A stretch of DNA of 50,045 bases, counting the filler, from Dirinaria sp. TL-2023a (Eukaryota): the NCBI GenBank assembly GCA_051941275.1. It is 2 parts of 2 records of this genome, joined end to end, with 100 filler letters (N's around TTAATTAATTAA, not from the genome) between each part and the next. Parts side by side here need not be neighbours in the genome. Positions count along the whole stretch, not along the records: positions 25,111 to 50,045 come from JAVEBF010000180.1; 1 more part is not named here. The stretch is one strand, 5' to 3'. The notes under the pieces were generated by a model, which saw only the letters and a program-made list of their open reading frames with translations, did not search any database and had not been told where the DNA came from. The first letter of the stretch is position 1; every line of letters begins with the position of its first letter. The translations under genes were made by a program, and so were the position numbers. Positions 14,380-48,697 of this stretch are shown here, piece after piece.

Positions 14380-14675
14380 GTCCCCTTCTCTGGCCGCGGT
14401 GCGGACGGCGGCAGCAAGGCCGGCAGCTGGATCGACCTCGCACCGGTGTTTGCTTGCGCTGCAATAAGCGCGCTTCGTCTGGCGAGCGCCAGACGGGGCA
14501 ACACACCGGTGGCGGCGATCCACCGCCAACCTCGCCACACACCGCCGGCATCAGGCGAGGGGTTCCTCGCCGGCTATCACATCATGTTAGCCCAGCTCCT
14601 TCTCAATATGCCTTGTGTACCTACCTGCGGCGAAAAGTGGCACTCTGGGGGAGGGGGAGCCAGGAGAAGGGGTCG
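14380..14675 (-). ncRNA. Candidate highly structured RNA of unknown class (GC-rich island)
   Basis: Closing helix 14382-14394/14659-14672, long rod 14406-14453/14498-14547, hairpins at 14456-14471, 14476-14495 and 14554-14571; the rod gains multiple G-U pairs when read on the minus strand. Confidence 0.5.
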
Positions 14676-15339: not shown

Positions 15340-15755
15340 TAATCTGTAGGTGTTAGTCCGCAGTAGTCATTTGATACCATGTGTATCAATTTATATCCAA
15401 GATTCGTTCAAATTCCTCTTAGATTTTCCTCTAATCCTGAACAATGCGTCTGATCAGATTGTGCAGAGGTCAATCATTTCCTGAATTGTCCAAGTCTTCA
15501 TAATGTTTGGTATAGTCTTCATCGGTTCGAATGACTATTCTAATGAGAGCTTGTGATTTTTCTTCGTAAAGTTCATTTGTCTTGCGTTTATCAAGAACAT
15601 CTGTAGCTTTCATCATCTCGAAGTGCTTTAATGTTGCTTAAAATCTAATATTTCTGAATTCTTCCTCTGCATGAGCTGGGATATGAGGGTCACGATTGTT
15701 CCAATGACTATGCCTCACTTCGATGGCTATTTTTAATTGAAAAGCATGTTAAACT
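15340..15755 (-). pseudogene. Pseudo-exon with multiple C-to-T-type premature stops
   Basis: One frame reads HAFQLKIAIEVRHSHWNNRDPHIPAHAEEEFRNIRF*ATLKHFEMMK...SGND*PLHNLIRRIVQD*RKI*EEFERILD; CTGAC..CAG and CTAAC..CAG intron-end signals lie on either side. Confidence 0.55.
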
Positions 15756-17342: not shown

Positions 17343-19691
17343 TCATTTGTACATATCTACACTGGCCATTCCACCCTGAGATGCTATGGCCTCCTGCCGG
17401 TTATGCTCAGGGACTATCTCCTCTAAAGATGATTCGTGTTCAGGAATAGGAAGCGGCTGCTCATCTTTCAGTGCCGGCTCCGATTTATGCTTCTCTTCCT
17501 TATCACTAACGAGTATACCCAATTCTTTCAGCATATTCAGCTCTCTCAATGTCTTCAGCTTTTTTCTTCTGTTTGCATGTGAAGCATGTGAAGCATGAGC
17601 CAGAACCTCGTTGATCTTCTCTTCTACAATGTTTTTAACGTATAATGCCATATCTTGGTCCTTGAAGACACCAACAAAGCGATAGCCGAGCCAGAGATAC
17701 AGGATCAGACCTTTATGTAATTGCTCAAGTTCAGCAAGGTACTCTCTGTTCGTAACATTCACAGAGGTTTCCCTGTCTAAGATATCAAGGTTCAATTGAG
17801 GAATATCTAGAAGAGCGCCGCTAGTGTTGTTAGCGACACACTTTGCGAAAGCGACGACGACGTGATCAAAATTGCCGCGCTTCACAGAAGCTGGAGAAGC
17901 ACAAAAAATAATGCGGTCGCGGACGGTAAGACCCTGAACGCTCTCGATTATGTCGGCGATGGCGATCTGCTCTCTAAGTTGACAAAGGCGGTATCGCGGA
18001 TGCACAGACGAGATTTCGTTCAAGCGGGCAAGGATATAACTAAAGGGAGTTCCGGGTGGGTAGTAGGCAGCAAATCGCATCAGTACGTCTGCAGGTGGCA
18101 TAATGACAGCGCTCATGACGGGTTCGGCCTCTGTTTGCATAGCTTGATGCACACGCGCATAGTCCATCTGCTCTAATGAGGTGACCAGGCCAGCAGATTC
18201 TCCCGTGGGCGCGATGCTCGTCTTTGATGAGTCATCAGGAACGCCGTCGCCCACATTTTCGTACGGCTGAGTCGGTATTTTGCTTTGCGGTGCTACACGG
18301 TAGCGGCCTGCACGCCCTGCTATTTGCTTCAAGTGCGGTATTGTAATTGGCTCATACTGCCTCCCGTCGAATTTCCATGTGGACTCGAAAATAATCCGTT
18401 TGATGTCCAGATTGAGGCCCATGCCGATTGCATCACTAGCTACGAGGTAGTCGTAGTCGTTGTCGGGATCGTTGAAAAGCCTCGCCTGGCTCGCCCTTGT
18501 TTCAGGGGGTAGACTTCCATAGACAATAGCAACCCGTTTCCCCGTCTTCTTCTCAATCTCGGTCTTGAAAGCGTGAATCTCCTTCCTCGAAAAAACGACT
18601 AAGCAGTCTCCTTTGTGAAGGTGCTTCAAGTTGCCATGCAAGCTTCGAGGAGCTGCTTGTAAAGGACTCAGCCGTTCGTAATGGTGCAATACGATCTTTT
18701 CTCCCATTTGGGCCGCGATCTCGCGTATGAGGGGCACAGTTCTTGCTTCTCCGCAGAGATGTAATTCTTTAGCTCTCAAGCCTAGAAGTGCTTGAGTCCA
18801 CGCCCATCCTCGGTCATCGTTTCCTACCATTTGTATCTCATCAATAATGCCCACATCTACTACTTTATTTGTTGGTACCATCTCAACTGTACAGCTGACC
18901 ATTGCATTCTCCTCTTCACTGTACCGTTTGTCATCGCCCGTGATCAGATGGCAAGGCTTTCCTTTCGCATTCAACCTTGTGTAGACTTCATGAGCGAGCA
19001 GCCTTAACGGGCCTGCATATATACCCGATTCTGCCTGCTCTAGGCGTTGGAGGGCTCGGTAGGTTTTCCCGGAGTTTGTTGGGCCGACATGGAGGTGTAT
19101 GGTGCGTTGAACCGTGCGTGTACCAGGAAACCATTCGACAGGATATCTGAGATCGGCGAGGTCCGTTTGACTTTGGAGGGTGGCGGGAGTAAACTCACGA
19201 TTGGCAACCTCGCCAAAGACAGTGTATCGAATTCGCGACTCCAGGCCGGGACGACCATTTTCCACAAACGCGTTGTGGAAGGATTCCAGCACCTTCTCCC
19301 ATTTTTGAGCCTTAGGGCCGTGAGGTGTTTGAAAAGCTTCTCGCACTTCCAGCGCGAACTTCCCGGCATGCGGTATCTCTGCAGTCTTTGCGAAATTTTC
19401 CAGCTTCTGACAGACCAGCTCCCGGAAGTCTTCGTCGGTAACCTTCTTTCGATATTCTACTTTTGCCCGGGGTCTGAAATGGAGATTTGAGAAGATGGAC
19501 TCATCTGCGGATGGTGAACGATGATTGCGTTTCCGTGCCTGTAAAGAAAGACATTCTGAAAAGTAGCGCCGTGCTTTGAGTGCATTAGCAACAGAGGTAA
19601 GACTTATTATGGCTGCGGAAGCGTAGCAGCTACGATAAACTTGACCAAAGTTGAGGACATCATGAGCGGCCGTCCGAGCGGGCGTAAGCAT
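17343..19691 (-). CDS. SUV3: Mitochondrial ATP-dependent RNA helicase Suv3
   Basis: HVGPTNSGKT (motif I), GPLRLLAHE, IDEIQM, ASDAIGMGLNL and QIAGRAGR; a short in-frame intron near the 5' end is possible. Confidence 0.96.
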   Translation of the reverse strand: MLTPARTAAHDVLNFGQVYRSCYASAAIISLTSVANALKARRYFSECLSLQARKRNHRSPSADESIFSNLHFRPRAKVEYRKKVTDEDFRELVCQKLENFAKTAEIPHAGKFALEVREAFQTPHGPKAQKWEKVLESFHNAFVENGRPGLESRIRYTVFGEVANREFTPATLQSQTDLADLRYPVEWFPGTRTVQRTIHLHVGPTNSGKTYRALQRLEQAESGIYAGPLRLLAHEVYTRLNAKGKPCHLITGDDKRYSEEENAMVSCTVEMVPTNKVVDVGIIDEIQMVGNDDRGWAWTQALLGLRAKELHLCGEARTVPLIREIAAQMGEKIVLHHYERLSPLQAAPRSLHGNLKHLHKGDCLVVFSRKEIHAFKTEIEKKTGKRVAIVYGSLPPETRASQARLFNDPDNDYDYLVASDAIGMGLNLDIKRIIFESTWKFDGRQYEPITIPHLKQIAGRAGRYRVAPQSKIPTQPYENVGDGVPDDSSKTSIAPTGESAGLVTSLEQMDYARVHQAMQTEAEPVMSAVIMPPADVLMRFAAYYPPGTPFSYILARLNEISSVHPRYRLCQLREQIAIADIIESVQGLTVRDRIIFCASPASVKRGNFDHVVVAFAKCVANNTSGALLDIPQLNLDILDRETSVNVTNREYLAELEQLHKGLILYLWLGYRFVGVFKDQDMALYVKNIVEEKINEVLAHASHASHANRRKKLKTLRELNMLKELGILVSDKEEKHKSEPALKDEQPLPIPEHESSLEEIVPEHNRQEAIASQGGMASVDMYK

Positions 19692-31199: not shown

Positions 31200-34100
31200 T
31201 CACAACCATAGTAGCCATCTCACTGCATTGATGAATCCCCTGATCGTGCCTCTAATCAAACGAAGAATCACAACGATCAGCCAGACCCACCACATGATTC
31301 CCAGGAGAGTCCACTCCAGAAGCACATAAGCCCCTCGTCGAATCCAACGCATTCTCCGCCGCCGCTTTCTCAATATAGCATCCACACTGTCGTTCAACTG
31401 CTTGACCTCCAAGACGTGAGTGGTGGTCAGTTGAGCGCTGAATGCATCGGCTTCATCTGCACATGCCCTAACGGAGGGTGTAAGCTTCTGAGTCACTCGT
31501 TCGTCGATATCTTTGATCTGCTTCTGCAGATTTTCGAGAGTGTCATTTGAGAAGCGCTCCGCCGCGCCTCGCAACTGCTCGCTCGCACTGTCGATGTTGC
31601 CAGCATAGATACGAGCTACGGCGTTATGCTCCTCTGATCGGGGCACCTTTGGCCACGGCCCCTCCGAGATTCCGTGGATATCTTTGAACATGGACGACGG
31701 CACACTAGGGATTTCATGAGCACGCCGAGAAATCTCGTTGGCTTTGACGCCAGAAGATAGCAACAGTGCCCTGACACGTGCTATGTCTCGTTTCGTTACC
31801 AAACTTTTCGATGCAGAGACGCTCCGATCATCAACGCTCCACTCCCGCTTGTCCTTGAGGGTTGGTCTATCCTCAGAACGCCGCTGTCGGCTTTCCAGTA
31901 TGGCCAACCCTGTGATGGGCGGGCCTCCACGGCCGATAGTCCCCGGGATTCCCAAGACGGCATTCAGCCTTCTATCAGCTTCGCGGACGCGCCCTTCTGA
32001 CCGACTTGCGCTGCTTTGCCTTGAATCGAATGGATCATACGAGGGAACAGTGTTTCGAGTCTGCGTTCGAGTCATTGGTGGAGGTGGTGTCGGCGAGATG
32101 TTTCGCATATCGAGCTTTGGCGGCGCAAGACCCTCAAATCTACTCGATCGTTGTCGTCCTCGTTGTAAGGCTGGCATGGATGGCGCCTCATTTGTATCAA
32201 TTGTATCAAGAGTTTCTGCTGGCGGATGTTCATCCTTAGCGAATGACGACCGGAAAGTTGGGAGATTGCTCATATGATATTTCGGTTTTTGAAGCGATGC
32301 ATTGTCCTGACTGTTTCCACCTACTGTGGTCTGTGACACGGTAATTTCAGGACTGCTGTTCAGAATATCACTTTCAGTGTCAGACTCTTCTGTGACGCTG
32401 GAAGCTGGCGAAGGGATTCGTGATGCTGGGTTGCTGTAGTCTTTCCTCCATAACTTATCGCCAACACGGGATACTTCATGGCTGACGATCTCAGTGATAC
32501 GGCTATTTCGGAAGAAGCCACGAAACTTGGATTCGTGTTCGCTGCTTTCCTTCAAACCCTTTTTAGCATTGTCATCAGAACGTCGAAATATTCTACTCGC
32601 ATCCTCAGCTGTTGTAGGGGACAGAAATCCATCCGTGTGAGTAGCCGCCTTCTCTTTCCGTGGACCATCCTCTAACCTGGAATCTCTTGTGCTAGGCTTT
32701 GATAAGCCGGATAATGAATTAGCGTCAGGGGCGAAATCTGTCTCACTAATCGCCTGTTTGTCGTTACTCGAAGCTCCCCGCGACCTGCTACGGGAAGGCA
32801 AAGCTTTTCGAAGTAGATTTGAAGGACTGCGGGCGCGTGAGTGATGAAAGGCAAACCGTGGTAAGGAGCCTTGATTGACGGGAGAATTGGGCGCTGTTAC
32901 ATCAAGATCATCGTCCGTTGAAGTACGTGGTCGTCGTCCCCGCGGCTCTTCAAGACTCGTCCTCGTCCACGGCAGAGCACTGCGAGAGCTGTAGCCGAAC
33001 TCTTTCGAAGTCTGCGGTGGCTTTGCGGGAGACGAGCTATTCGCCACAATCCCATTAGTAGACTGCTTAGAATCTGGTTCATCAGACTTGAATTCCATTC
33101 CATCAGCTTTGTCCTGGCCTCGTCCGTTGACAAGAGCGCCCTTTTCGTGCATTTCTTGCTCCAACAATTTTTTCATATGCTTTTCGAGAATGGCACTGTC
33201 TATATCGTCTTGACCTCGATGCCGGCCCAGCTTGTGACGAGTTGATTCCTCGTAATCCGATCCGCTTAAACTCGAAGAGCTGTGCGAACGCATGAGCTTG
33301 CGAGGCCACCGACTTTTGCGGTCTCTGTGGCCGTCTGCTTGTCGATTGGGAATTCCTGACTCAACACGTTCGTTTTCCCGATGATTTCTCTCTTTCGAGG
33401 TTTCTTTGCGTGCTTTGTCCATCAAGAAACGAAACTTTTCAGGCGATATTGCTTGGCCATTGACGCTATCTGAACGACTGTGAGTAGCTGGTTCGAGATC
33501 AGCACTCGTCCTCGTTGAGGGCGCTTTATAGCTCTGAGGGCTGGCCAGGACCTTTTCCCCTCTGCAATCCTCGATAAGGCTGACGTTCCCATCGTGCTGA
33601 AGCCAATACGCATCTGCCAAGAGATCCCAATTACGAAATCCCCATTCGATGCGTGGACGTCGAGGTTTGCTGCCTTGTGCAGGGTTCTGCTTACGATTAT
33701 CCATACCAGGAAAGCCATCCACAATTGGTGTCTGGCCAGGGGCGTTTTCGAAAGAAGGTAATGGGAACCGATCGTCAATTGTGGCTATACCGGCTTCACG
33801 CTCGCCAGCAACTGTGTCGATCCAATGTCTTACTTTATCAACGTCCTTCCATTTCTCACTTTCGGAATTGAGGGGGCTACCCTGGCGTAATCGAACTTTA
33901 CGATTCCGTATATACTGAAGCGGATTGTAAGGTCTACCAAGGTCATTCGAGGATTCTGGAGAGGCCTTGCGGGTCGACCGCGCAGTCTTCGGCCTGCTTT
34001 CAGAAGGCAACGGAATCTTGGGCAGGTACTGTAACAGTCGGCGATATTCATAACCCAGCTCGATCGCGACCCTTGCCTTCTCTGCGCGCGATAATGTTGC

Positions 34101-35081
34101 ATCAGATGGGGAGAATGAGAGATCAGGACCGGCTGCCAGTTCTATGTCAGGTACTGTTGGTGCGTTTCCGGAGTCTTGCGAAGGACGGGGAGAAGGCGAG
34201 GCACGGCTCCCTCCCTTACTTGATCGCGGAGATATGCGCCTCGAGATCCGGCGTTGTTGCTCTAGATGATGGCGTAAACTCCCACCTCCTGAAAGTGGGC
34301 TGAAGCCAGCAGTCAGCGAGCCTGCAGAGATGACTCTCTTATCTCCATGCGTATTGCCTGGCGTCAAAAGACCCCCGCTGAAATTCCTACGACGGCTCTC
34401 GCTGAGACTCAATGCCAGATTGACGATCTGCGCAGGGTCCGTATTCAAACCTAGAGCAGGGATTCCTTCAATTGAGCTCGAAGTCGGTTTATCTGATTGC
34501 ACACTGCTGGAGGTGATATCACTGCCCGCCGAGGATCGAACGCTCTGGCTTGTTTTGGAAGGAGTAGAAGCCGTATTCCCACCATTCGCCGTGCCTTTGT
34601 GATCTGAGCCAGTAGCCGAGGTGACGCTCATGACTTCATTGGCAAGTGGCGAGCTCCCCACTGAATGCTTCAATTGATGACGGTGGCGAAGATGCCTCCG
34701 TTTTTGCATGTTCAATTCATCCTCATCAGCCTTCGCTTTGCCCTTGTTCTTGACCCCTTCTATATTTCCAGATAGATTGTCCTTAACCTTTAAAGGGTTT
34801 GAGCCTGACGGGAAAGCAGACTGCAACAGAAAGCCGCCGGAATGCCTTGGTCTCTTCTTGACATGTTCGTGTTCCAGCTGATTGTCGTGGGCGACATTGA
34901 TCGCTTGCACTTGATCGGCAGGATATGAAAAGGTGTCATCTTGATCCATCTGGGTCTGTGTGGATACAGCCTGGTTATTGCCATCAAGTCCGGCAGGGTG
35001 GTTCGAAAGTGGTACTGATGAGGCTGACAGTTGCGGGGAGGTAGACGACCGCAATGTCCGGCCGCTAGACTGTCCAGACAT
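31200..35081 (-). CDS. Large low-complexity conserved fungal protein with C-terminal TM segment, Mtc4-like, 1293 aa
   Basis: Uninterrupted ORF with a conserved-looking YNPLQYIRNRKVR block, a C-terminal coiled coil and LLEWTLLGIMWWVWLIVV; the Mtc4 label is from recall only. Confidence 0.7.
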   Translation of the reverse strand: MSGQSSGRTLRSSTSPQLSASSVPLSNHPAGLDGNNQAVSTQTQMDQDDTFSYPADQVQAINVAHDNQLEHEHVKKRPRHSGGFLLQSAFPSGSNPLKVKDNLSGNIEGVKNKGKAKADEDELNMQKRRHLRHRHQLKHSVGSSPLANEVMSVTSATGSDHKGTANGGNTASTPSKTSQSVRSSAGSDITSSSVQSDKPTSSSIEGIPALGLNTDPAQIVNLALSLSESRRRNFSGGLLTPGNTHGDKRVISAGSLTAGFSPLSGGGSLRHHLEQQRRISRRISPRSSKGGSRASPSPRPSQDSGNAPTVPDIELAAGPDLSFSPSDATLSRAEKARVAIELGYEYRRLLQYLPKIPLPSESRPKTARSTRKASPESSNDLGRPYNPLQYIRNRKVRLRQGSPLNSESEKWKDVDKVRHWIDTVAGEREAGIATIDDRFPLPSFENAPGQTPIVDGFPGMDNRKQNPAQGSKPRRPRIEWGFRNWDLLADAYWLQHDGNVSLIEDCRGEKVLASPQSYKAPSTRTSADLEPATHSRSDSVNGQAISPEKFRFLMDKARKETSKERNHRENERVESGIPNRQADGHRDRKSRWPRKLMRSHSSSSLSGSDYEESTRHKLGRHRGQDDIDSAILEKHMKKLLEQEMHEKGALVNGRGQDKADGMEFKSDEPDSKQSTNGIVANSSSPAKPPQTSKEFGYSSRSALPWTRTSLEEPRGRRPRTSTDDDLDVTAPNSPVNQGSLPRFAFHHSRARSPSNLLRKALPSRSRSRGASSNDKQAISETDFAPDANSLSGLSKPSTRDSRLEDGPRKEKAATHTDGFLSPTTAEDASRIFRRSDDNAKKGLKESSEHESKFRGFFRNSRITEIVSHEVSRVGDKLWRKDYSNPASRIPSPASSVTEESDTESDILNSSPEITVSQTTVGGNSQDNASLQKPKYHMSNLPTFRSSFAKDEHPPAETLDTIDTNEAPSMPALQRGRQRSSRFEGLAPPKLDMRNISPTPPPPMTRTQTRNTVPSYDPFDSRQSSASRSEGRVREADRRLNAVLGIPGTIGRGGPPITGLAILESRQRRSEDRPTLKDKREWSVDDRSVSASKSLVTKRDIARVRALLLSSGVKANEISRRAHEIPSVPSSMFKDIHGISEGPWPKVPRSEEHNAVARIYAGNIDSASEQLRGAAERFSNDTLENLQKQIKDIDERVTQKLTPSVRACADEADAFSAQLTTTHVLEVKQLNDSVDAILRKRRRRMRWIRRGAYVLLEWTLLGIMWWVWLIVVILRLIRGTIRGFINAVRWLLWL

Positions 35082-35456
35082 GACATCTTCGGATAGAGGC
35101 AGTGATTAAATATGTGGAGAGATTCATGACAGCGGATGCAGTAGAATTGCACGATGAACCCAATCGTCGAAATCGCTGGTTGGTTGGTCACTCGAGCTCT
35201 TCACATGAAGGTTCTTGGCACAGACGCCGGCCAAGAATCCCGACATCCCGAAACACGGGAAGCGGATCGACGGAAAGCTTGGTCGAGGGGTCTAGTACGA
35301 GTACCGAATCTCGCATGCTTACCTAATCATTCTTCAAGTCACGGGATTGCAGGGTACAGGCTGAGAAGATGAAATTGGCCGCCAAATATCTGTCTGGGGA
35401 TATATATACATCCTTAATTTCTAGCAACCCTCTCAATCAGTGATGCCATTCCCCAT

Positions 35457-38642: not shown

Positions 38643-40471
38643 ATGTCCGACCCATTATCGGTCGCTGCCGGTGTCATAGGCATTGTGACCGCTGCTGTTC
38701 AGGTATCGAAAGTTTTAATTGACTTTACCAATGGCATGCATGACGCACCAAGGCAAGCGACTGTTGTGCTCGAAAAAGTGAACAGTATACACATCATCAT
38801 GTCGCAGCTTCAGCCGTTCGTACTTGGGCTTGCGACGCCTGACCAATCAAGAAGTTGCTTGATACAAGTCGACGCTGTCATTGCGATCCTGACTGGCTGT
38901 GTCGCCACATTTTCAGAGCTCGAGCAAGTTCTTGACGGCCTCAGAGCGGAGGGTCTGGCAACATTCCTAGACAAGATCAAATGGACTAAAAAGGAGTCAA
39001 CAATTGCAAGTCTGATCATGAGACTTGAAACCCATGAATCATCATTGTCGCTAATGTTGAATATACTCAATGGGTGCGTGGCTGAAATTTTCACCTCGGT
39101 TAGAGTATGTACTAAATGATTGGAAGCAATACCATGCAAGAAGTCAAGGTTTCTGTCAATCGTCTGAATACAACCATGAATGAAAAGTATCAAGAAATCC
39201 TGGACAGACTCCGGTCTCTGGAATTGCGACAGTCTGTAATTTCTCGACCGGCCTCCCGAAGCTCGACTGTTTTCTCGGAACGTCCTTCATCAGAGGCGCG
39301 GAGCCAAAAGGCTGAGGCGGATATTGAGGGGAACGAGGGCCAAGCGGGGAAGACTTTCAACTTGAAGTTTGAAAGAGATCTTGCCATAACTCGCGTCTAT
39401 AGGAAAACCCTCTTTCCAGGATCCACCTCCTCCCTTTTGACAACTGAAGAGGAGCCCCAGTGCAATTGGTCAATGCTCTCGGCTCTGAGTATGGCCGACA
39501 TGGCATCCCAGATATCCGTACTCAATCTGGCAATTTCTGCTTCTGATGTATACAATTCAAACCAATATACAGAAAAGAGCCTAGATAAATTTCTAGATAA
39601 AATGGATAACAACCAGCAAAATGGGGAGGAGCCCAAGGAAGGCATGGAAAAGGCCATGAAGAAATTCCCCCACCCTTTACAGCAGTTCATCGATGGACAG
39701 CATAAAGCTGAGGATCCAGCTGCAGAGGTCGTCATAGTGGCAGCGTTTGAGACTTTGGGCCTGCCGGCACCACTGTCCTCAAAATATGCACTATACATGA
39801 TCCATGAAAATCCCCAGAAGGAACTTGGATATGCAATCGACTCTCGGTATAAATACTTTTGGAAGAGGCTCGAGCCTACAGAAAAGCCGTTACGGATTTC
39901 CAGAGATTGGGTACGCAAAGGCCGGCAGCCGATATTTATGATTCGAAGACCTGCAGGGCCGTTTGTGAATGCCCAAGGAATTACCAGAAATTCAATGGAG
40001 CAATTTGGTTATCATGTCGATGGTTGGCTGATCGACGCCGAGGCCTTCTATCGACAAACTAGGTCTTCTCAGCGTGACAGCGGACTGAAATGCCACGGAG
40101 AGGAGTTCTACATACCTGCGATGAAAAATGGTGGTTCAACGACCAATTCAGGTTTGAGATATGTACGCGCCACTTCACAGGAATCCTGCCGTGAGGTATT
40201 GCGACGTGCCTTGGAGCAATACAACATCCCCTCCCTAGAGTGGGGACGATACAGGCTCGCAATACTTGACAATAGAGAAGTAAGATATTTAAGTTTGGAG
40301 GAAAAGCCATTGGCATTGTTCAGCGAGGGCCGAAACCCGATTTTCGAAGTACGAGAAATCGGAAACGGGATACCAGCCTACCACAAGCCAGAGATTGATC
40401 AGGTATACTTAAGAAGCAAAGCCCGAATCTGGTCATCCCGACTTAGAAAGGTTCCTTACACCATGGGTTGA
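38643..40471 (+). CDS. HeLo-like/fungal STAND N-terminal domain protein with two C-terminal Ste50-type RA domains, 2 exons
   Basis: MSDPLSVAAGVIGIV...DAP...IKW..KE..I..L..RLE..K/ESSLSLML N-terminus; intron ~39074-39126; FERDL..TRVYR linker; two segments matching the Ste50 RA pattern (C.EVL..AL..YNI...W..Y.L.I.....R.L..EEKPL..F..GR.PIF..R). Confidence 0.82.
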
Positions 40472-40554: not shown

Positions 40555-43500
40555 TTAGGTGAACGAACGAACTTCCATGCCTATCCCAGCTAAGATGAGT
40601 TGGTTGGCAGCAATGAGTTCGATGTACGCTAGATCTGCGATAGTAGTAGAGGAATTATAGCGTCTGCGTACGGAAAAGCCTTCAACGCCCGGCCGACCAA
40701 GGTCAACATCAACTTGCCAGATTTGAAGCCTCTGATCGTTGCCGGAACTGATGAAATCATACTTTCTTTGAAGGTCACTGTACTCCACGTTTAAGAAACG
40801 AAGGGCAGTCGCCGCAGAGGCGTGGGCCTTGGGGATCACTAGCGTCGAGAGTGATATTGAGACATCGGAAGAACTTTTCTGGTCTTCCACATGCGCTGTT
40901 CCCGTACGCGAGAAAGCTATGGAACCGTCATCACCTGCAGTAGCCAAGATCGTGTCGGCATCAGATATGCACACGGTGGCCATACATTGAATACTGTTTT
41001 GGTGTACCCGGTAACGAGACGCCCAAGTTAGCACATCCTGAATCGTGATCTTTCCTAAAGACGTAATCCAATGCTGGGAATGATCATGTGCTTTCTGAGT
41101 TGAAGTGTGCGCATCTACGCCTACGGAGAGCGGCCAGAAACTAATATAACCGTCTGTGCTTGTTGTACACAGACAGGGTAAATCGTTCAAACGAAGGACT
41201 TTGGTCTGTGTGAGGCAGTAGCTGGTATACTGCCCCCTTGAAACCAGTACCCACGATCTAGTATTGCATTCGTAGGTGAATATCTAGCAACTTATAAGTC
41301 AAGTCAGGCGAAAACGGATGATATACTTACTCTGATTGAAGAGTCTGAATAGACTGCGAAGAAAATATAAGTCTCCAAGGGACTCTCGGCATTTTTCCAA
41401 AGCATATCAAAATCCATGATCCGCAGATCTGCCGATTCAGTCGCTTTCGGATATGCTGAATCGCACACGATACCAATACCGAAGTAGGGAACGTAATGGA
41501 CCCGCCAAATGAAAAGCTCTTCACGCCCTGCAGCACTGAACAAGAAATGCCCGTTCGGTGACCATCGCAATTTTCGGATGCCTGTCGTGTGCTTAGGCAG
41601 AATGTGCAAGCATTGGAAGTTATCTCCAAAATTGCTGCGATCATCAGGCAAATCGAATATTCGGATCGTCGTATCTTCTGCTCCAGACGCTAAGAACCTG
41701 TGATGAACACCGCTTTCGTCCACGATCGCTGGTGAAATTGCCACGGCCTTGATTTCTCGGCCATGCCCACCAAACTGCATTAGACGGTGCGATGCTTGTG
41801 GTTGTATAGAGATATTAAATAAAGATGCTTTAGTCCAGATGAAGTTTCCTCCATCCGAGTTGTCAGATCGCGGTATGTACGCCCAATTGCGATTCGAGCC
41901 GCCGCACTCGACATTCATGGTTTCCATCTTCCGGGTTTCATTCCATACCACAAACTCCTTGCCACGGAAGCCCCAAAGAATCAATTCTTTGCCGGTGTGA
42001 TGGAAAATTCCGCCCTCAACATGTGGGCCGAAAGGTAGAGCACCAACGTGGAGCGTCGAGAAATCAATGTTCAGACTCTGCTTAGAGGACTCAGACTTTG
42101 TGAGTCGATGGATGGCATATGTGCCGTTTCTGCCTGTGGTGAGGATGTGGCAGATATTAGAATCAGGTGAATAACTTGGTACGAATACAGCAATAATGGT
42201 AGTCACTGCGTCTGATCCATGCACACGGTGTACGGATAGACGGCGAGCAGCTTGTGGTTTGACTACTTCTGACACATCAATGCTGTAGATGGCAATGTCG
42301 CCGCCGCGAGATCCTAGGCTTACTAGGCCTTCCCATTCAATGCAGCGCGAAGTCGTCGCTACGAAAGATGTCGGAAGGTCCAGGTTCACTTTTCTGGTCC
42401 TCAACGCTTCTCCATCCAGCTGCACAAGAAGGCAATGCGCCGTTGAGGTTCCAACAAATGAGACAAAGATGAATAACTCTACGCTCTGTTTCCCTTGAAC
42501 TCTTACGCTCGGACAATCCCTCAACTGCGAAGCCTGCATACATGCCACTTTCCTGGGTAGCTCAGTGATCTTTGCCACAGTTCGCGTTCTATGCTTGTAA
42601 AGGAAGATTGTGCCATTACTACCAGTTAGCACAGCTGTGTCCGTCTTCTCTGCAACCGTTATAATGCTTGTTCCCTTCAATTCTGGAAGCTCTACTATCT
42701 TGCTCCACGATAAGGATAAGGACTGTGGAGACCCAGGCGGCGTTTGCTTCAGAGTGAGTGAGCCGAGCAAGACCCAGCCGTGATCAGTCGTGGCCAAGAA
42801 ATTTTCTTCATTTATCCATGCATAAGTCTTCAAGGATTCTGCCTCCGTATATTTTGAGTCAGTACCGGTTGCGGCCAGAGCCGTGTCAAGTTGTGACTTT
42901 GTGCTGAGCTCTTTTGACGGAGTACCATTGCTAATCTCCCGAGAATACCGAGACTCTGCCACGTAATCTTTGTTAGGACCTTTCACGGTGTATTTCAGAC
43001 TCCATACTTGGTTGCGAGCGCCATTCAATTCGAACTTGTATTCGGCGCTATAGTTGTCCTCAACACACAGATGGTAACCATTTGCTAGAAGGATACTTGT
43101 GGGATGGTCGTCAGGCAATTGACCAAATCTGAGCGTATGAAAGAGATAATCCACGGATGAGCCGTCCTCTGGCTTCACAAACCAAGCACTGATTTGGTCT
43201 TTGCTCTCTTGGTATCGATATGCGTACTGTCTACTGGCCGCAAGTCTGAAACCTTGATGTGTAGTGAGCTCGCCTACCTCTGTGTAGAGATATTCCATGT
43301 CATAAGCTTGGTTCGAAGGTGGCCGATCTTCGAAGTTGGCTGTGCCCTTCAGTGTCCCAGACGGATAGGTGGGTATCGCACTATGTAAGTCGCGTTCTAA
43401 GGTCCACTCTCCTTTCAATGAGGTAAACATTCGCATGAGTGGTGAAATATCTGGAGCCGCAGGTTCTGCATTAAGAACTAGGTGCTGCTGAATGTCATCG

Positions 43501-44772
43501 ACACTGTACTGCTTCCGCCAATCATTGTTGCACAGAGGTTGCTCATGGTTTCCAAGCTCGTATGTTACTATGCGTCCATCTGCTCCTCCTGAGGCAATCT
43601 GCAATTTTGAGTCTGCTTGCTCAGACACAGCCACGGCCCACAAATTCTTCCCAAAATGGTACTTGTACGTGGATAAATGCTCAAGTCGGAAAGGCGCCGC
43701 TCCACTCCAGAATTCTGCAGGGCTGGCCTTGCTCAATCGCCATATCCGCGCGGTACTGTCTTCGCCGTAGGAGAGCACGTACCATGATTGCCCTGCGTGA
43801 CCAAGAAACCGGACTCCCCAAATGCGTGAGCTATGTCCCATGCTTATTTCCGGGGTAGAGCTCTGTTCGGGGCCAACCGATATGTTTTGGCCTCTTTGAT
43901 CCGATGCATTGCGAATTATGTCAGTCACATTATGGAAGCGGATTGATCGATCGTCACCACAGCTTGCCATGAAGCGATTTTCAACAGGAGGTTCGGCCAG
44001 CTGAAGCTCAGATAAGGACACACCAAAGACAGATCCCTCATGACCGCCAAATGTATGATGCATCTGACTCGAGATCGTAGAAGAAGCCGGGATTTGTAAT
44101 GGGTCTACATAGAATGACCATAAAAAAACATCTCCAAACGCGGTGCCAGCTGCCACAAGGCCTGAACCATTGTGTGAATATGTCAAATCTGCGGAACACA
44201 GAAGAGTTCGAGGTCCTGATGTGAGACATCTTATATCCGCAAGTCGTGGAGCTTTCTGACCTTTTCCACTCAGTTGCAAAGATAGTAAAACATTGTGAGA
44301 TGTAACCAATATCGCTTGAATGGAAGGAGAATTATAGTGGTCGCCAATAACGTGGTTTGAAAAGCACGCGTCTAGTATTCGGTCGTCGGCACATCCTTCG
44401 ATGTCGATCTTGACATCGATGGATAGCTGACCATTAAGTCGGTTACACTTGAATTCGACCACGCAGATCGAGCGACCAGCCCATACGAGGGCAGTGGCGC
44501 AGTCTTCCCGTAGCCTCAAACACACACGAGACTTGATCCCTTGAACTGGATTCGAGGGGAAAAGCTTCACCGAGCGAATGATGCTACATGTCTGTACATT
44601 ATAGATACGCAGAAACGGACCCTCACCAGCCAGCAACAGCTCGGAAGACTTTGTCTGTAGAAAACGCAATGCGGTCACCGGATAGATGGCATGATCAAGC
44701 TACGCACAAGACACATTCAATATCAATCTGAACAAGACATCGCTCTTGACTTACTTCGGCGGACCCTGACAT
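40555..44772 (-). CDS. TRM734: WD40 protein Trm734/Rtt10/WDR6 (Trm7 partner) with an internal inserted domain, 3 exons
   Basis: Exons 44772-44755, 44699-41331 and 41283-40555; motifs LLLAGEGP, GHEGSVFGV, SCGDDRSIR, GHSSRIW, ECGGSNRNW, HGREIKAV, SGAEDTTIR, HQNSI and SSGNDQRL. Confidence 0.88.
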
Positions 44773-45261: not shown

Positions 45262-48200
45262 ATGTGTGCTTGGAAGATAGCCCTTGTGGCACTCACATTT
45301 ACGGGTCAAATATGGAGCTCAGAAGGATATCGGAACACCTCCAGTTACATTACCTCGGCGCCGGGCTTCTCTTTCCAGGAAGATCGACCGGACGGCTGCC
45401 CCCCTTGCTTTAACTGCAACCTCGAAGCTTTTCAGTGTGCACAATTCGGTACATGCAACAAGTATAATGGCAAATGCTCCTGTCCCGCAGGTTTTGGAGG
45501 GGAAGACTGCTCTTTCCCGCTATGCGACTCCTTGGCCCATGGCAAGGATAGAACGCCGAGGGCGGATGGAGAATGTGAATGTGACGAGGGTTGGGAGGGA
45601 ATCAACTGCAATGTTTGCAGAACGAATGATGCATGCAATGCTCTGATGCCAGAAGGCGAGGGAGGTGTCTGCTATGACAGTTTCAGAGTCGTCAAGGAAA
45701 ACCACCAAATGTGCAACGTCACCAACCGCAAGATCTTGGACCAGCTGAAGGAGAGGACTCCACAGATAACATTCTCGTGTAACGCTGAAGACGAGACGTG
45801 CAACTTTCAATGTGAGTACAAAGCTCGATCGCTACTCTCAGGCTACTAATCAGTCGTAGTCTGGGTGGGCCAAGACGAGTCTTTCTTTTGCGATCTTGAT
45901 ACCTGCTCGTTCAGCCACAAAGACGACTATGATCGGAATGTCACAACATATAGATGTGAGAACATCAGATGTTCATGTGTGCCTGGGCGAATGTTGTGCG
46001 GAGAGGAGGGTTCAATCGACATTGGCGATTTCCTGGATCAAGAGATTAAGGGCCCCGCATCCCTGACAACCATACAGACTGAGGGAGGCAGCAGCAAAGA
46101 TGGAAGCAAATTCGATGAACCAGCGATGAACAATCTCATCAAGAGTGTTTTTGGCGACGAAAGTATTACGCTGCAATGCCATTCTGGGGAATGCCTATAC
46201 CGTACCGATGTCCCAGGTTACACCCGGCCCGTTAAGGAAATCAATACACCATTGATCGCGGGTGTCATAGCTGGGTGTGCGCTGTTCGTGGTTCTGGTCA
46301 TTCTACTGGTCTGGTTCTTGTCAAGACGATCGTTCAGACATGGACCGATCCACCTGTCAGATGACTCAGATGACGAGAGCGCTCAACTGATGACGGAGCA
46401 TAAGGCAGCTTCTCTTCAGTTCGAAAATGTCTCTTACCACCTGAACGGTAAGCAGATCCTCCACGGTGTTCAGGGGATGGCAGTCCCCGGCCAGATCACC
46501 GCAGTCATGGGAGCCTCAGGTATGTTTTACCCGCGCCTGAAACCCGCTTCGGTAGAAGTGCTGATGTGAGCTCCAGGAGCGGGAAAGTCGACTTTCCTCG
46601 ATATCCTTGCGAGGAAGAACAAGCGTGGTGTTGCTTCGGGTGATTTCTTTGTCAACGGTGAGAAAGTTCCTGACCGGGAATATCGTCACGTCATCGGTTT
46701 CGTCGACCAAGACGATACTATGCTACCCACCTTGACCGTTCATGAAACAATCATGACGAGTGCTCTTCTTCGCCTACCTCGCGACATGGGTATAACAGCA
46801 AAGGAGCAAAGGGTCTACGATGTCGAGAGGCAATTAGGGATCACCAATATTAAGGACCAACTCATCGGATCTGAAGAAGGTAACGGCCGCGGCATCTCTG
46901 GTGGTGAGAAACGAAGAGTCGGCATCGCTTGTGAGCTAGTCACAAGTCCAAGCATTCTTTTCTTGGACGAGCCTACAAGCGGCCTTGATGCTTTCAACGC
47001 ATTCAACGTGGTTGAATGCTTGGTCACTTTGGCAAAGACCTATAACAGGACGGTCATCTTCACCATACACCAGCCGCGCTCAAACATTGTTGCACTTTTT
47101 GACTACTTAGTTCTCCTGGCGAAAGGGAGAACCGTCTATTCGGGTCCTTTTAGCAATTGCCAGAATTACTTTGATCAGATCGGCTATCCTTGCCCGCCAG
47201 GTTTCAACATTGCTGACTACCTCGTGGATCTTACAATGCACGCCGAAACCGCCAACCCTTCGTCCGAAGAGAATGGGCCTGCAGGGTTTGATGGAAGCTC
47301 TGAGGCCATGAGGACCGTTGGGAGCAGTGTCCGCGCGATCAAATCCATCGCAAGCACTTCCAACGTGAGCATTGATAATAGTAGCTATGGCAGTCATAAC
47401 GAAAGCGGACGGCCAAAGAGTAAAAGGAAGCAGTCTCTGAAACAACAACAAGACCGTAAGCTTTATACGCGCAAGAAAAGCAGTGGTGATGACACGCCGG
47501 CAACGCCGAGGACCGACGACGAAAGCTCCATTGCAGATGATAATCGAAACTCTCAGGATTGGCTCAAGCTTTCACGGCAACAGCACGGACAAGTCCCTCC
47601 ACAAGTTATGGACGACCCGCATCAACTTCCACCGGCTGCGTCCGGAACTACAGGTCTGGATGAGCTGGTCTCAAGCTATTCTCGCTCTGAAGTCGCTATG
47701 TCAGTGCATGAGGATATTACCAGCGCTGTGAAGAATGCGACGACGGCCAACGGTTCGTCAAATGGCCAGAATGGCGCATCGGCAGCAATGAGGACCTATC
47801 GACGAGTAGGATATCTGCGCCAATTTAGCATCCTCTCGCAACGGACATGGCGGAACCTCTATCGCAACCCGATGCTCATGTTGACACATTATGCAATATC
47901 AATCCTGTTGGCGGTTCTCTCCGGGTACTTATTCTATGGCCTGACCGACGACATCCCAGGTTTCCAAAACCGGATGGGCCTTTTCTTCTTCATCCTAGCC
48001 CTGTTTGGCTTCAGTACTTTGACGAGTCTAACAGTGTTTTCTTCTGAGCGATTACTCTTCGTAAGAGAGAGAGCAAACGGCTACTACTCTCCGATCACTT
48101 ATTTCGCCGCCAAACTCGTGTTCGACGTTGTGCCGCTACGGCTCATTCCTCCAATTATCTTTGCTGCCATTGTGTACCCGATGACAGGCCTGGTGCCGGC

Positions 48201-48697
48201 CTGGCCCAAATTTCTCACGTTTATATTAGTCCTAGTACTCTTCAACCTTGCGGCAGCAGCAATATGCTTGTTCATCGGTATCGTATTCAAAGATGGTGGG
48301 GTGGCGAATCTGATCGGGAGCTTGGTGATGCTGTTCAGCTTGCTCTTTGCTGGTTTGTTGCTCAACCATGATGCTATACCAAAGGCGGCATTGTGGCTCC
48401 AAACAGTGAGTTTTGCACGCTATAAAGTTGTCCGAATCGGATCGTTCTAACGGATTGTAGCTCTCCATCTTTCATTACGGCTTTGAAGCACTAAGCGTCA
48501 ACGAGGTCTCTTATCTCACTCTCATCGACCACAAGTATGGCCTCGATATCGAGGTGCCGGGCGCATCTATTTTGAGTGCCTTTGGCGTCGATACTCTCGC
48601 TTTGTGGAATGATGTGATCGGCCTTGCAGTCTTTTCTGGAGTATTCATTGTTCTGGCCTACGTCGCTATGCACCTACTTCTTGTTGAGAAGCGATAA
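45262..48697 (+). CDS. ADP1: ABCG half-transporter with Cys-rich EGF-like lumenal N-terminus (Adp1), 4 exons
   Basis: Signal peptide and CPPCFNC/EGF-like repeats; Walker A GASGAGKST split by the intron at ~46520-46575; [25 protein letters not shown] and a C-terminal TM domain ending LLVEKR*. Confidence 0.95.

What the first reader, a model, noticed from the sequence alone, without database searches (positions are those of the whole stretch)
38643..40471. HeLo-like N-terminal domain fused to two Ste50-type Ras-association domains: candidate immune sensor or decoy
Seen: the N-terminus has the DPLSVAAGVIGIV...DAP pattern typical of HeLo-like/SesA-type domains found on fungal NLR (STAND) proteins, but there is no NACHT or NB-ARC P-loop. 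The C-terminus instead carries two diverged copies of a Ste50-like RA domain: AEDPAAEVVIVAAFETLG..YALYMIH..RLEPTEKPL..GRQPIFMIRR and SQESCREVLRRALEQYNI..WGRYRLAI..RYLSLEEKPL..GRNPIFEVRE. Established: Ste50 is a SAM+RA MAPK adaptor, and HeLo-family domains act as cell-death or signalling modules in fungal nonself recognition. Inference: the SAM domain is replaced by a HeLo-like effector and the RA domain is duplicated, which could couple small-GTPase/MAPK perturbation to an effector output, as an integrated decoy would.
Basis: partly seen in the sequence, partly recalled or inferred. Interest (0 to 1): 0.7.

Follow-up and report, generated by a model that had tools for sequence, protein, structure and literature searches.

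The report
MLKL-like killer domain fused to Ste50-type RA pair
A lichen fungus gene joins a domain resembling the membrane-attacking part of cell-death proteins to two copies of the docking domain of the signalling adaptor Ste50, and it belongs to a large, apparently undescribed fungal family that couples this domain to parts of G-protein signalling.

Summary
Window 38643-40471 (+) is a two-exon gene with a 53-nt intron at 39074-39126. Spliced RNA contigs from a close relative skip the same intron. It encodes a 591-aa protein identical to a deposited hypothetical protein of Dirinaria sp. Residues 1-183 match Pfam PF17111 (Helo_like_N, now PigL_N) at the threshold. They fold as a helical bundle whose structural matches include MLKL and plant CC-NLR domains. 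Residues about 340-462 and 468-560 are two RA (ubiquitin-like) domains, 34% and 37% identical to the RA domain of a lichen Ste50. No NACHT or NB-ARC domain, SAM domain or repeat domain is present.

The main new point lies outside the finding. The first ~290 residues form a conserved module with 1207 representative relatives across Pezizomycotina. In 28 of 96 relatives scanned, it is fused to G-protein signalling domains: RhoGAP, G-alpha, CRIB, Ras, Cdc24-type GEF, Spa2-SHD or RA. Several of these have lost catalytic residues. None of the 96 carries a NOD domain. The partner domain tracks the module's phylogeny, so these are old subfamilies.

My best reading is an NLR-independent sensor-executioner targeted by its RA pair. 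The decoy idea is plausible but untested.

The parts
38643..39073 (+). Exon 1 (residues 1-143 plus two bases of codon 144)
   Evidence: The ORF and splice donor GTGCGT are at 39074. RNA contigs join 39072/3 to 39126/7.
39074..39126 (+). Intron, 53 nt, GT..AG with a TACTAA branch site
   Evidence: The sequence is. The intron is skipped in 2 RNA contigs, X1 and X2, which come from one sample (table 5).
39127..40471 (+). Exon 2 (residues 144-591 and the TGA stop). One ORF holds the second half of the N module and both RA domains.
   Evidence: The fusion is therefore not an artefact of gene-model merging.
38652..38735 (+). N-terminal hydrophobic helix (residues 4-31, DPLSVAAGVIGIVTAAVQVSK...)
   Evidence: AF2 predicts helix 4-31 with pLDDT 81-95. 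Kyte-Doolittle mean is 1.88 for residues 8-26, the second highest in the protein. P4, S6 and G13 are at least 85% conserved in 72 relatives.
38643..39244 (+). HeLo-like / MLKL-like helical bundle (residues 1-143) plus a long helix (145-182). This equals the Pfam PF17111 match 3-183 and spans the intron.
   Evidence: Pfam results are. AF2 helices are 4-31, 37-60, 76-102, 107-143 and 145-182. VIA-align gives MLKL 4btf_A Z 11.7, rmsd 2.4, 100 aligned, and Rx-CC Z 10.6, NRG1 CC-R Z 10.0, MLA13 Z 10.0.
39251..39367 (+). Ser-rich, poorly conserved linker (residues 186-224), predicted disordered
   Evidence: pLDDT is below 50. Composition is and there is no conservation.
39368..39565 (+). Conserved family motif of unknown role (residues 225-290): F.FE.DL..(S/T)RVY.R ... 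WS.LS.LS.....S.ISV..L(A/P)I......N..Y
   Evidence: F225, L229, Y235, S246, S259, S262, S265, S271, L278 and N287 are at least 85% conserved in 72 relatives. AF2 confidence is low. The atlas gave no hit.
39713..40081 (+). RA1: atypical RA/ubiquitin-like domain (residues about 340-462) without the first beta-hairpin. It has a conserved C-terminal extension (...FGYHVDGWLIDAEAF).
   Evidence: It is the second Pfam RA stretch. It shows 34% identity to Ste50 RA. A Ste50-seeded profile scores 62.7 bits. AF2 pLDDT is about 90. Tandem-UBL alignment to USP7 covers about 230 columns. The same domain type occurs in P0006, P0009, P0027, P0028, P0032 and P0124.
40097..40375 (+). RA2: complete RA/ubiquitin-like domain (residues about 468-560), Ste50-type
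   Evidence: It is the best Pfam RA stretch, 486-543. It shows 37% identity to Heterodermia Ste50 RA with E 4e-12. Foldseek gives RADIL RA E 3.8e-5, then Rasip1, RGL1 and RalGDS. VIA-align gives Rasip1 Z 10.5 and RalGDS Z 10.5. It groups with Ste50-type RA domains in the tree.
40376..40471 (+). Basic C-terminal tail (residues 561-591), predicted disordered, plus the stop codon
   Evidence: pLDDT is below 50. It is conserved in P0004 and P0005.

Best explanation
The gene encodes a cytosolic two-part protein with no nucleotide-binding oligomerisation domain. Part one is a conserved ~290-residue module. It contains an MLKL/HeLo-like helical bundle with a hydrophobic first helix, a long helix, a disordered linker and a conserved Ser-rich motif. 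By homology with HET-S, HELLP and MLKL, this part is expected to attack or insert into membranes once released. Part two is a pair of Ste50-derived RA domains. By homology, these dock on the membrane-anchored partners of the Ste50 RA domain: Cdc42-GTP or a related small GTPase, or an Opy2-like cytoplasmic tail. I propose that the RA pair is the targeting and sensing module. It places the protein at sites of Cdc42/MAPK signalling, and engagement or disturbance of that complex decides whether the N-terminal module is unleashed. Whether the trigger is endogenous signalling or a foreign effector acting on the bait (the decoy variant) remains open. Shown here: the gene model, transcription of the orthologue, the domain identities and folds, the family-wide fusion pattern and the loss of catalytic residues in relatives. 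Inferred: the membrane activity of the N module, the ligands of the RA pair and the coupling between the two parts.
For: The gene is intact and its intron is spliced in RNA of a close relative. Relatives with matching pieces exist: P0004 at 61% over exon 2, P0005 at 79% over the RA pair and P0010 at 86% over exon 1.

The N domain matches PF17111, which equals Helo_like_N according to passages of PMC9815663. Family members score up to 48.4 bits. Its structural matches include MLKL, Rx, NRG1, MLA13 and AtMLKL3. A hydrophobic, conserved helix 1 is present. Passages of reviews state that HeLo and HeLo-like domains target membranes and kill through the N-terminal helix (PMC12881547; PMC10197012).

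Both RA copies are homologous to Ste50 RA, and RA2 has the RA fold. Ste50 RA binds Cdc42 and Opy2 and brings Ste11 to the membrane (PMC6589780, abstract and introduction).

At family level, 28 of 96 scanned relatives carry RhoGAP, G-alpha, PBD/CRIB, Ras, RhoGEF/CDC24, GIT_SHD or RA behind the same module, and 0 of 96 carry NACHT or NB-ARC. The RhoGAP Arg-finger position is not Arg in 6 of 7. The G-alpha catalytic Gln position is Ser or Thr in 4 of 4 detectable cases, and the switch-I Arg position is His in 3 of 3. The Ras-like domain of P0054 has degenerate G1, G3 and G4 motifs. This suggests binding-only modules. [quoted passage not shown]
Against: Nothing here shows membrane activity, toxicity or any binding.

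The PF17111 score is at the threshold: 25.7 bits for the whole protein, below the 27.2 cut-off. The structural Z scores (10-12) lie in the range that the tool says generic helical bundles reach, and unrelated bundles score alike.

AF2 gives no confident packing between the parts (pTM 0.39) and no confident structure for the conserved motif, so there is no structural support for autoinhibition.

RA2 is only 37% identical to Ste50 RA, so its ligand may differ. RA1 lacks the first beta-hairpin. The tree contained no non-Ste50 RA outgroup.

Partner domains are inherited stably along the N-module tree: 7 changes, which is the minimum, against a shuffled mean of 14.2. That pattern fits old conserved cellular roles as well as immunity. 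Neighbouring genes are housekeeping genes (Mic60, aldehyde dehydrogenase, a WD40 protein, an ABC transporter), and there is no NLR or other cell-death gene nearby.

The window protein departs from the family consensus at K132 (Glu), S232 (Thr) and the LPI motif (LAI).
Confidence: 0.45

Rival explanations
1. Integrated decoy in the strict sense. The RA pair mimics Ste50 so that an effector or toxin of an antagonist that targets the Cdc42-Ste50-Ste11 module binds or modifies it. This directly triggers the HeLo-like executioner without an NLR. This is a special case of the best explanation, scored on its own.
For: RA copies are derived from Ste50: P0110 shows 73% and 57% identity to a lichen Ste50 RA, and 75-84% for Ste50-type proteins listed. 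Relatives carry other hub components, several without catalytic residues, as expected of baits. Ste50 SAM occurs on fungal NLRs (PMC9815663). The family is large and divergent, with 1207 representatives at 50% clustering. The RA domains have diverged from a strongly conserved Ste50 RA.
Against: There is no receptor moiety. No effector is known. The partner domain is stably inherited, not shuffled. At 37% identity, RA2 is a poor mimic of the conserved Ste50 RA. There is no genomic clustering with immune-type genes. No polymorphism or copy-number data could be obtained because no genome is held.
Confidence: 0.2
2. Non-lethal signalling modulator. The N module is only a membrane or oligomerisation scaffold. 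An RA pair without a SAM domain competes with Ste50 for Cdc42 or Opy2 (or tethers them). This tunes MAPK and polarity signalling, much as the dead RhoGAP, CRIB and G-alpha relatives would sequester their partners.
For: The subfamilies are old and vertically inherited, and they are spread over Pezizomycetes, Geoglossomycetes, Leotiomycetes, Sordariomycetes, Dothideomycetes and Lecanoromycetes. The context is housekeeping. The orthologue is expressed in a lichen thallus sample. Structural similarity to MLKL is not above the generic bundle level. Pfam has renamed the family after a pigment-cluster protein rather than after cell death.
Against: The conserved hydrophobic first helix and the PF17111 relationship point to the membrane-attacking class. 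A pure scaffold would not need it.
Confidence: 0.25
3. The ubiquitin-like domains no longer work as GTPase or Opy2 binders. They could act as generic protein-protein or FERM-F1-like modules, or the gene could be drifting towards loss of function.
For: Among the best fold matches for RA2 are FERM F1 lobes (SNX17 Z 10.8) and UBLs. RA1 is atypical. Of the 25 listed coding differences from the relative's RNA, 15 change the amino acid and 10 do not. This is a partial list, with 37 more differences not shown.
Against: The ORF is intact and spliced, and it is conserved at 61-79% in relatives, including both RA domains. AF2 confidence is high for both domains. RA-specific Pfam and Ste50 matches are present.
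Confidence: 0.1

Closest known systems
HELLP / HELLF / HET-S (fungal HeLo and HeLo-like cell-death executioners) and MLKL
   Same: All have an N-terminal helical bundle of the HeLo-like class (PF17111) with a hydrophobic first helix. This is followed by a flexible region and a regulatory C-terminal part. MLKL is among the best structural matches.
   Different: The known proteins are switched on by an amyloid motif templated by an NLR (HET-S, HELLP) or by RIPK3 phosphorylation of a pseudokinase domain (MLKL). Here the C-terminal part is a pair of RA domains, with a family-specific Ser-rich motif in between. No amyloid motif was recognised and no adjacent NLR gene was seen.
Ste50 / Mst50 / Ubc2 MAPK adaptor (SAM + RA)
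   Same: The RA domains are homologous, at 37% and 34% identity to the Heterodermia speciosa Ste50 RA. RA2 groups with Ste50-type RA domains, and a family relative reaches 73%. RA1, like yeast Ste50 RA (PMC6589780 introduction), lacks the first two strands in the model.
   Different: There is no SAM domain, so no link to Ste11 is expected. The RA is duplicated. The N-terminus is a HeLo-like module. The protein is not an orthologue of Ste50.
Fungal NLRs with HeLo-like N-termini, and plant NLR-ID integrated decoys
   Same: All combine a cell-death type N-terminal domain with a domain copied from a host signalling protein.
   Different: No NACHT or NB-ARC domain and no WD40, ANK or TPR repeats are present. 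None of the 96 scanned relatives has a NOD. The bait-like domain is fused directly to the executioner-like domain.
PigL_N family proteins (Pfam PF17111 as now named; ankyrin protein of the Monascus pigment cluster, recalled)
   Same: They share the same Pfam family for the first ~180 residues. One relative here carries ankyrin repeats (P0104).
   Different: The partner domain differs. No function of PigL_N was found in the papers read.

Membership tests
HeLo-like domain (Pfam PF17111, Helo_like_N / PigL_N) | Profile match above Pfam's gathering score | tested here: inconclusive
   The score is 27.5 bits for exon 1 alone (cut-off 27.2) but 25.7 bits for the whole protein. Relatives found at E down to 1e-84 pass clearly, for example P0064 at 48.4 bits and P0051 at 43.1 bits.
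HeLo-like domain (Pfam PF17111, Helo_like_N / PigL_N) | Hydrophobic N-terminal helix with transmembrane propensity | tested here: met
   AF2 predicts helix 4-31. Kyte-Doolittle mean is 1.88 over residues 8-26. P4, S6 and G13 are conserved.
HeLo-like domain (Pfam PF17111, Helo_like_N / PigL_N) | Four-helix-bundle fold related to the MLKL 4HB and plant CC domains | tested here: inconclusive
   Matches are MLKL Z 11.7 (rmsd 2.4, 100 aligned), Rx-CC 10.6, NRG1 CC-R 10.0 and MLA13 10.0. Unrelated bundles score 10-12 too, and the tool warns that Z under about 13 is common for helical bundles. Foldseek gave no helical hit with E at or below 1e-3.
HeLo-like domain (Pfam PF17111, Helo_like_N / PigL_N) | Membrane targeting and cell-death induction | not testable with these tools
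   This needs expression experiments.
RA domain (Pfam PF00788) | Profile match above the gathering score | tested here: met
   The score is 52.6 bits against 21, in two stretches, the best at 486-543.
RA domain (Pfam PF00788) | Ubiquitin-like beta-grasp fold | tested here: met
   RA2: Foldseek gives RADIL RA E 3.8e-5 and 11 hits at E 1e-3 or better. VIA-align gives Rasip1 and RalGDS RA Z 10.5. RA1 has only indirect support: a tandem-UBL alignment to USP7 over about 230 columns and a secondary-structure order lacking beta1-beta2. RA1 was not searched alone.
RA domain (Pfam PF00788) | Binding of a GTP-loaded Ras-superfamily GTPase | not testable with these tools
   No fungal GTPase sequence was available for a complex prediction. 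A pull-down is needed.
Ste50 adaptor orthologues | N-terminal SAM domain that binds the Ste11 SAM | tested here: not met
   No SAM family appears in Pfam at E up to 1. Genuine Ste50 proteins scanned in the same way show SAM_1 and SAM_2.
Ste50 adaptor orthologues | Single C-terminal RA domain of the Ste50 type | tested here: not met
   There are two RA domains, at 37% and 34% identity to Ste50 RA. They are related to the Ste50 RA but not orthologous.
Fungal NLR (STAND) proteins | Central NACHT or NB-ARC NTPase domain | tested here: not met
   There is no such Pfam match, and none in 96 relatives.
Fungal NLR (STAND) proteins | C-terminal WD40, ANK, TPR or HEAT repeats | tested here: not met
   None is present in the protein. 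The WD40 gene downstream lies on the other strand and is a separate gene.
Integrated decoy (as defined for plant NLR-IDs) | Domain duplicated from a host protein that pathogens target | tested here: inconclusive
   Derivation from or kinship with Ste50 RA is shown. Whether Ste50 is an effector target in fungi is not known from anything read here.
Integrated decoy (as defined for plant NLR-IDs) | Fusion to an immune receptor that signals on bait perturbation | tested here: not met
   There is no NLR moiety. The fusion is directly to an executioner-like domain.

The most novel reading that the evidence does not exclude
Pezizomycotina possess a large family of NLR-independent bait-executioner proteins that guard the small-GTPase and G-protein polarity hub. 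Each member fuses an MLKL-like pore-forming module directly to a binding-only copy of one hub component. These copies are a dead RhoGAP, a GTPase-dead G-alpha or Ras, a CRIB motif, a Cdc24-like GEF, a Spa2 SHD or, in lichen fungi, a Ste50 RA pair. A toxin or effector of an antagonist, or aberrant GTPase activity, that engages the bait would trigger membrane attack. This would be a one-protein analogue of pyrin's guarding of RhoA and of plant NLR-IDs.
Probability: 0.2. Interest if true: 0.85.

Novelty: new variant of a known kind. Interest (0 to 1): 0.62.

Why it matters
HeLo-like and MLKL-like domains are the best understood fungal cell-death executioners. So far they are known to be controlled by NLRs, either within one protein or through amyloid templating. 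This gene and its family suggest a second, NLR-free way of controlling such a domain: direct fusion to modules that bind Cdc42, Rho, Ras or G-alpha signalling proteins. If the N module is lethal, the family links cell polarity and MAPK signalling to regulated cell death in fungi. It also offers simple two-domain proteins in which the activation of an MLKL-like domain could be dissected. If it is not lethal, the family shows that PF17111 is not a reliable marker of immune function. That matters for the many genome surveys that count it as one.

Tried and rejected
Whole-genome search: no genome is held for this window. I therefore could not count paralogues or find the Dirinaria Ste50.

PDB sequence searches found nothing for the exon-2 protein at E up to 1. 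P0110 gave only weak RA hits, the best being afadin at E 0.24. Two searches were wasted on thresholds that were too strict.

A word-index search with the RA region found only P0003 and P0004.

The atlas gave scores of 0.83 or less for the RA region, which are leads only. It gave no usable hit for the linker motif.

The metagenome locus scan returned 2 loci that match only residues 5-48 at contig ends. These are useless for synteny or dN/dS.

tblastn found no paralogue of any part elsewhere in the window.

Complex prediction (three copies of residues 1-190, to test self-association) never ran. The queue was full at every attempt, so nothing is known from it.

In the VIA-align lists RA2 filled the table.

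The crude count of 10 synonymous and 15 non-synonymous differences rests on a partial list from contigs of a relative. It is not a dN/dS estimate.

The amyloid-signalling-motif idea for residues 225-290 was considered because HET-s has its prion domain at a similar place (recalled). I dropped it because the motif has no G/N/Q-rich pattern and is followed by further domains. No test was possible.

Literature: searches for HeLo-like or Helo_like_N together with Ras association, RhoGAP, G-alpha, GTPase or Ste50 found no paper describing this architecture. In one search only 20 of 34 papers were listed. Subscription journals and supplements were not searched.
Full report
**Gene model and expression**

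The finding spans ATG 38643 to TGA 40471 on the + strand. Two ORFs in different frames meet near 39100. The sequence shows a canonical fungal intron at 39074-39126: GTGCGT at the 5' end, TACTAA near the 3' end, AG at the end, 53 nt in all. Joining 38643-39073 to 39127-40471 gives 591 codons.

A word-index search with the exon-2 translation returned a 591-aa NCBI protein. It was 100% identical and covered 100% of that query. Its name is 'hypothetical protein Q9191_001984 [Dirinaria sp. TL-2023a]', from a lichen-forming fungus. Its sequence shows the same exon junction.

Three RNA-seq runs of one lichen metatranscriptome sample hold contigs about 95% identical to the window. These contigs cover most of the gene. 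Two contigs, from two runs of the same sample, skip exactly the 53 nt with GT..AG ends. They come from a close relative rather than the same strain. The intron is therefore real, and the orthologue is transcribed and spliced.

Exon 2 alone contains the second half of the N-terminal module and both RA domains. The fusion cannot be an artefact of merged gene models.

**Domain identities**

- **Pfam, N-terminus.** PF17111 matches residues 3-183, at 25.7 bits for the whole protein and 27.5 bits for exon 1 alone. The cut-off is 27.2.
- **Family name.** PF17111 is now called PigL_N. Passages of PMC9815663 name the same accession Helo_like_N / HeLo-like.
- **Pfam, C-terminus.** PF00788 (RA) matches at 52.6 bits in two stretches, against a cut-off of 21.
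- **Absent families.** No NACHT, NB-ARC, SAM, WD40, ANK or TPR family appears at E up to 1.
- **Full-length AlphaFold2 model.** This used a 63-sequence alignment and reached mean pLDDT 72.2 and pTM 0.39. It shows confident helices at 4-31, 37-60, 76-102, 107-143 and 145-182. Residues 188-330 have low confidence. There are two confident alpha/beta domains at about 340-460 and 486-556.
- **C-terminal model.** Residues 330-591 modelled alone give the same picture.

**The RA domains**

For RA2, Foldseek against the PDB gives 11 matches at E 1e-3 or better. The best is the RADIL RA domain at 3.8e-5. Rasip1, RGL1 and RalGDS RA domains follow. VIA-align gives Rasip1 RA Z 10.5 (rmsd 2.7, 90 aligned), RalGDS RA Z 10.5 and SNX17 FERM-F1 Z 10.8 for model residues 139-231, which are protein residues 468-560.

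RA1 has less direct support:

- It is the second Pfam RA stretch.
- A profile seeded with a Ste50 RA domain scores it at 62.7 bits.
- The two domains together align over about 230 columns with the tandem ubiquitin-like domains of USP7.
- In the models RA1 starts with the helix and lacks the first beta-hairpin.
- It carries an extra beta-hairpin and helix after the last strand, in the conserved '...FGYHVDGWLIDAEAF' extension.
- The introduction of PMC6589780 says that yeast Ste50 RA also lacks the two N-terminal strands.
- RA1 was not folded or searched by itself.

**Is the RA 'Ste50-type'?**

BLASTP against the SAM+RA protein of the lichen fungus Heterodermia speciosa gives 37% identity over 90 residues (E 4e-12) for RA2. 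For RA1 it gives 34% over 61 residues (E 3e-6). That protein is annotated 'Adaptor for signal transduction'.

A family relative, P0110, holds the second half of the N module and two RA domains in a single ORF. Its RA domains are 73% and 57% identical to that Ste50. A search with its second RA domain returned 1074 proteins at E 1e-3 or better among 1083 candidates. Those among the 120 listed that carry a source name or SAM domains are Ste50 proteins, at 75-84% identity to the query.

I built a tree of 40 RA segments. RA2 of the window protein and of its relatives P0004 and P0005 sits on a long branch inside the Ste50-type group. RA1 groups with the atypical RA domains of P0009, P0032 and P0028. 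The tree had no RA domains of other kinds as outgroup. 'Closest to Ste50' therefore rests on identity: 37% against at most 28% to solved metazoan RA domains.

The protein is not a Ste50 orthologue. It has no SAM domain and has two RA domains.

**The N-terminal module**

An exhaustive HMMER search of 1.84 billion representatives found 1207 relatives at E 1e-3 or better, of which 592 reach 1e-10. Almost all of the 150 listed match only residues 1 to about 292. This stretch is a conserved module made of four pieces:

- the helical bundle, with DPLS..A..V.G at the start, AP, TFSELE and an almost invariant W114;
- a long helix;
- an unconserved Ser-rich linker;
- a second conserved block, F.FE.DL..SRVY.R ... 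WS.LS.LSL...SNISV..LPI......N..Y, with five serines conserved in at least 93% of 72 sequences.

The role of this second block is unknown. AF2 is not confident about it and the atlas gave nothing.

The first helix is hydrophobic. The Kyte-Doolittle mean is 1.88 for residues 8-26.

VIA-align over 48,161 chains puts MLKL at rank 3 for residues 9-141, with Z 11.7, rmsd 2.4 Å and 100 residues aligned. It also lists the MLKL N-terminal domain (Z 11.0), potato Rx CC (10.6), NRG1.1 CC-R (10.0), barley MLA13 (10.0), Sw-5b (9.6) and AtMLKL3 (8.1). Unrelated helical bundles score the same. The tool warns that such Z values are common for bundles. I therefore treat the fold match as consistent with the Pfam assignment, not as proof of it.

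Review passages state that HeLo and HeLo-like domains target the plasma membrane, are cytotoxic and depend on the extreme N-terminal helix. They also state that these domains are related to the MLKL 4HB and to plant CC domains (PMC12881547; PMC10197012).

**What the module is fused to elsewhere**

I scanned with Pfam at E up to 1e-4 the 95 remaining listed relatives of at least 330 residues, plus P0137. That makes 96 proteins.

| Partner domain | Proteins |
|---|---|
| G-alpha | 10 |
| RhoGAP | 7 |
| PBD/CRIB | 4 (one also with a beta-lactamase domain) |
| RhoGEF and/or the CDC24 calponin domain | 4 (one also with a Ras domain) |
| RA | 2 |
| Ras domain only | 1 |
| GIT/Spa2 SHD | 1 |
| Ankyrin repeats | 1 |
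| TPR | 1 |
| NACHT or NB-ARC | 0 |

In total, 28 of 96 carry a domain of G-protein, polarity or MAPK signalling. Many of the rest are probably truncated ORF calls, because introns break the prokaryote-style gene predictions of ENA and Logan contigs. A local search found an RA-like domain in 13 of 152 proteins.

Named members come from Geopyxis, Geoglossum, Cudoniella, Oculimacula, Neopestalotiopsis and Bogoriella. These represent five further classes of Pezizomycotina. The clade nearest to the window protein is made of lichen-forming Lecanoromycetes: Xylographa, Squamulea, Lecanora and Trapelia.

Tandem Ste50-type RA pairs also occur behind other N-termini:

- P0155 has a HeLo-like start that weakly matches the module.
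- P0156 has a different N-terminus and a ULD_2 domain.

**Catalytic residues in relatives**

- **RhoGAP.** In the HMMER alignment of P0058 with p50RhoGAP, the motif GIFRRS aligns with DIFTLN. The first Arg of that motif is the arginine finger, as I recall. In an alignment of the seven RhoGAP members, that position is T, H, I, A, S, R and I. So 6 of 7 lack the arginine.
- **G-alpha.** The G3 box reads DVGGSR, DVGGTR, DVSGSR or DVSGTP in the 4 of 10 G-alpha members where a pattern was found. Canonical G-alpha has DVGGQR (recalled). The switch-I arginine position is His in the 3 of 10 where the switch-I pattern was found. Five of the ten keep an intact P-loop.
- **Ras-like domain of P0054.** It reads GGDNVGKV, DTTGYE and NNSD at the G1, G3 and G4 boxes.

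These calls rest on pattern searches and on recalled canonical motifs. They need a proper profile alignment. The trend is that the fused domains are binding modules rather than enzymes.

**Age of the fusions**

I built a tree of 72 complete N modules. The partner domain types need only 7 changes, which is the minimum possible. The shuffled mean is 14.2, and 0 of 200 shuffles did as well. The RhoGAP, G-alpha, GEF and RA types each fall on one side of a branch. The fusions are therefore old and inherited, not rapidly shuffled as in many NLRs.

The very high identity of the P0110 RA domains to Ste50 still suggests a recent capture or conversion in that lineage.

**Context**

The neighbouring genes are Mic60/mitofilin, an aldehyde dehydrogenase, a large WD40 protein with DUF6314 on the opposite strand immediately downstream, and an ABC-G type transporter. 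No paralogue of any part lies elsewhere in the window.

**Interpretation**

The protein combines a domain of the membrane-attacking HeLo-like class with a docking module related to the RA domain of Ste50. The Ste50 RA binds Cdc42 and the Opy2 tail and brings Ste11 to the membrane (PMC6589780, abstract and introduction).

I consider it most likely (0.45) that the RA pair targets the protein to such a complex and gates the N module. This would make a one-protein sensor-executioner without a NOD. The strict decoy version is a special case (0.2). It gains some support from the bait-like, catalytically degenerate partners in relatives. It also gains support from the report that the Ste50 SAM domain occurs on fungal NLRs (PMC9815663 passage). 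The stable inheritance of partners, the absence of any receptor and the housekeeping neighbourhood count against it.

A non-lethal modulator that competes with Ste50 or scaffolds polarity signalling (0.25) fits the phylogeny equally well. A generic or decaying UBL function (0.1) is least likely, given the conservation and expression.

**Novelty**

The protein itself is deposited and carries precomputed PF00788 and PF17111 labels, so the bare architecture is visible in databases. In the searchable literature I found no description of HeLo-like domains fused to RA, RhoGAP, G-alpha, CRIB or Cdc24-type domains. The papers on fungal NLRs and cell death that I read in passages do not mention such fusions. 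I rate it a new variant of a known kind.

Noticed in passing
relatives P0035, P0058, P0063, P0064, P0066, P0092 (RhoGAP); P0078, P0087, P0117, P0127 (G-alpha); P0054 (Ras): Signalling domains fused to the same N module appear catalytically dead. The RhoGAP arginine-finger position is not Arg in 6 of 7. The G-alpha catalytic Gln position is Ser or Thr in 4 of 4 detectable cases. The Ras G1, G3 and G4 boxes are degenerate. The canonical motifs are recalled from memory.
   Followed up: partly
P0155, P0156, P0157, P0158, P0159: Tandem pairs of Ste50-type RA domains also occur behind other N-termini. P0155 has a different HeLo-like start. P0156 has an unrelated N-terminus plus a ULD_2 ubiquitin-like domain. 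In P0157 and P0159 a Cys-rich tail follows the pair. Copies of the Ste50 RA seem to be a recurrent building block in Pezizomycotina.
   Followed up: partly
window 39368-39565 (residues 225-290): This is a strongly conserved Ser-rich motif (WS.LS.LSL...SNISV..LPI) shared by the whole family. It has low AF2 confidence and no known function. Its spacing of serines suggests a phosphorylation switch, which is speculation. The window protein has LAI instead of LPI and Thr for the conserved Ser232.
   Followed up: partly
window 31203-35105 (-): An uninterrupted 1301-codon open frame has no Pfam match even at E up to 1. It is a large uncharacterised protein next to the aldehyde dehydrogenase gene.
   Followed up: partly
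window 40555-44699 (-): A large WD40 protein with a central DUF6314 domain (97 bits) lies tail-to-tail with the gene studied. Only about 85 nt separate the two stop codons. The RNA contigs run on past the stop codon of the studied gene into this region.
   Followed up: no
window 45262-48447 (+): Frames with teneurin-type EGF-like matches (45262-45846) lie directly upstream of an ABC-G type transporter frame (46570-48447). They may be exons of one gene or a separate Cys-rich gene.
   Followed up: no
window 10001-18000: G+C content is 0.43-0.44 here, against 0.47-0.53 in the rest of the window.
   Followed up: no
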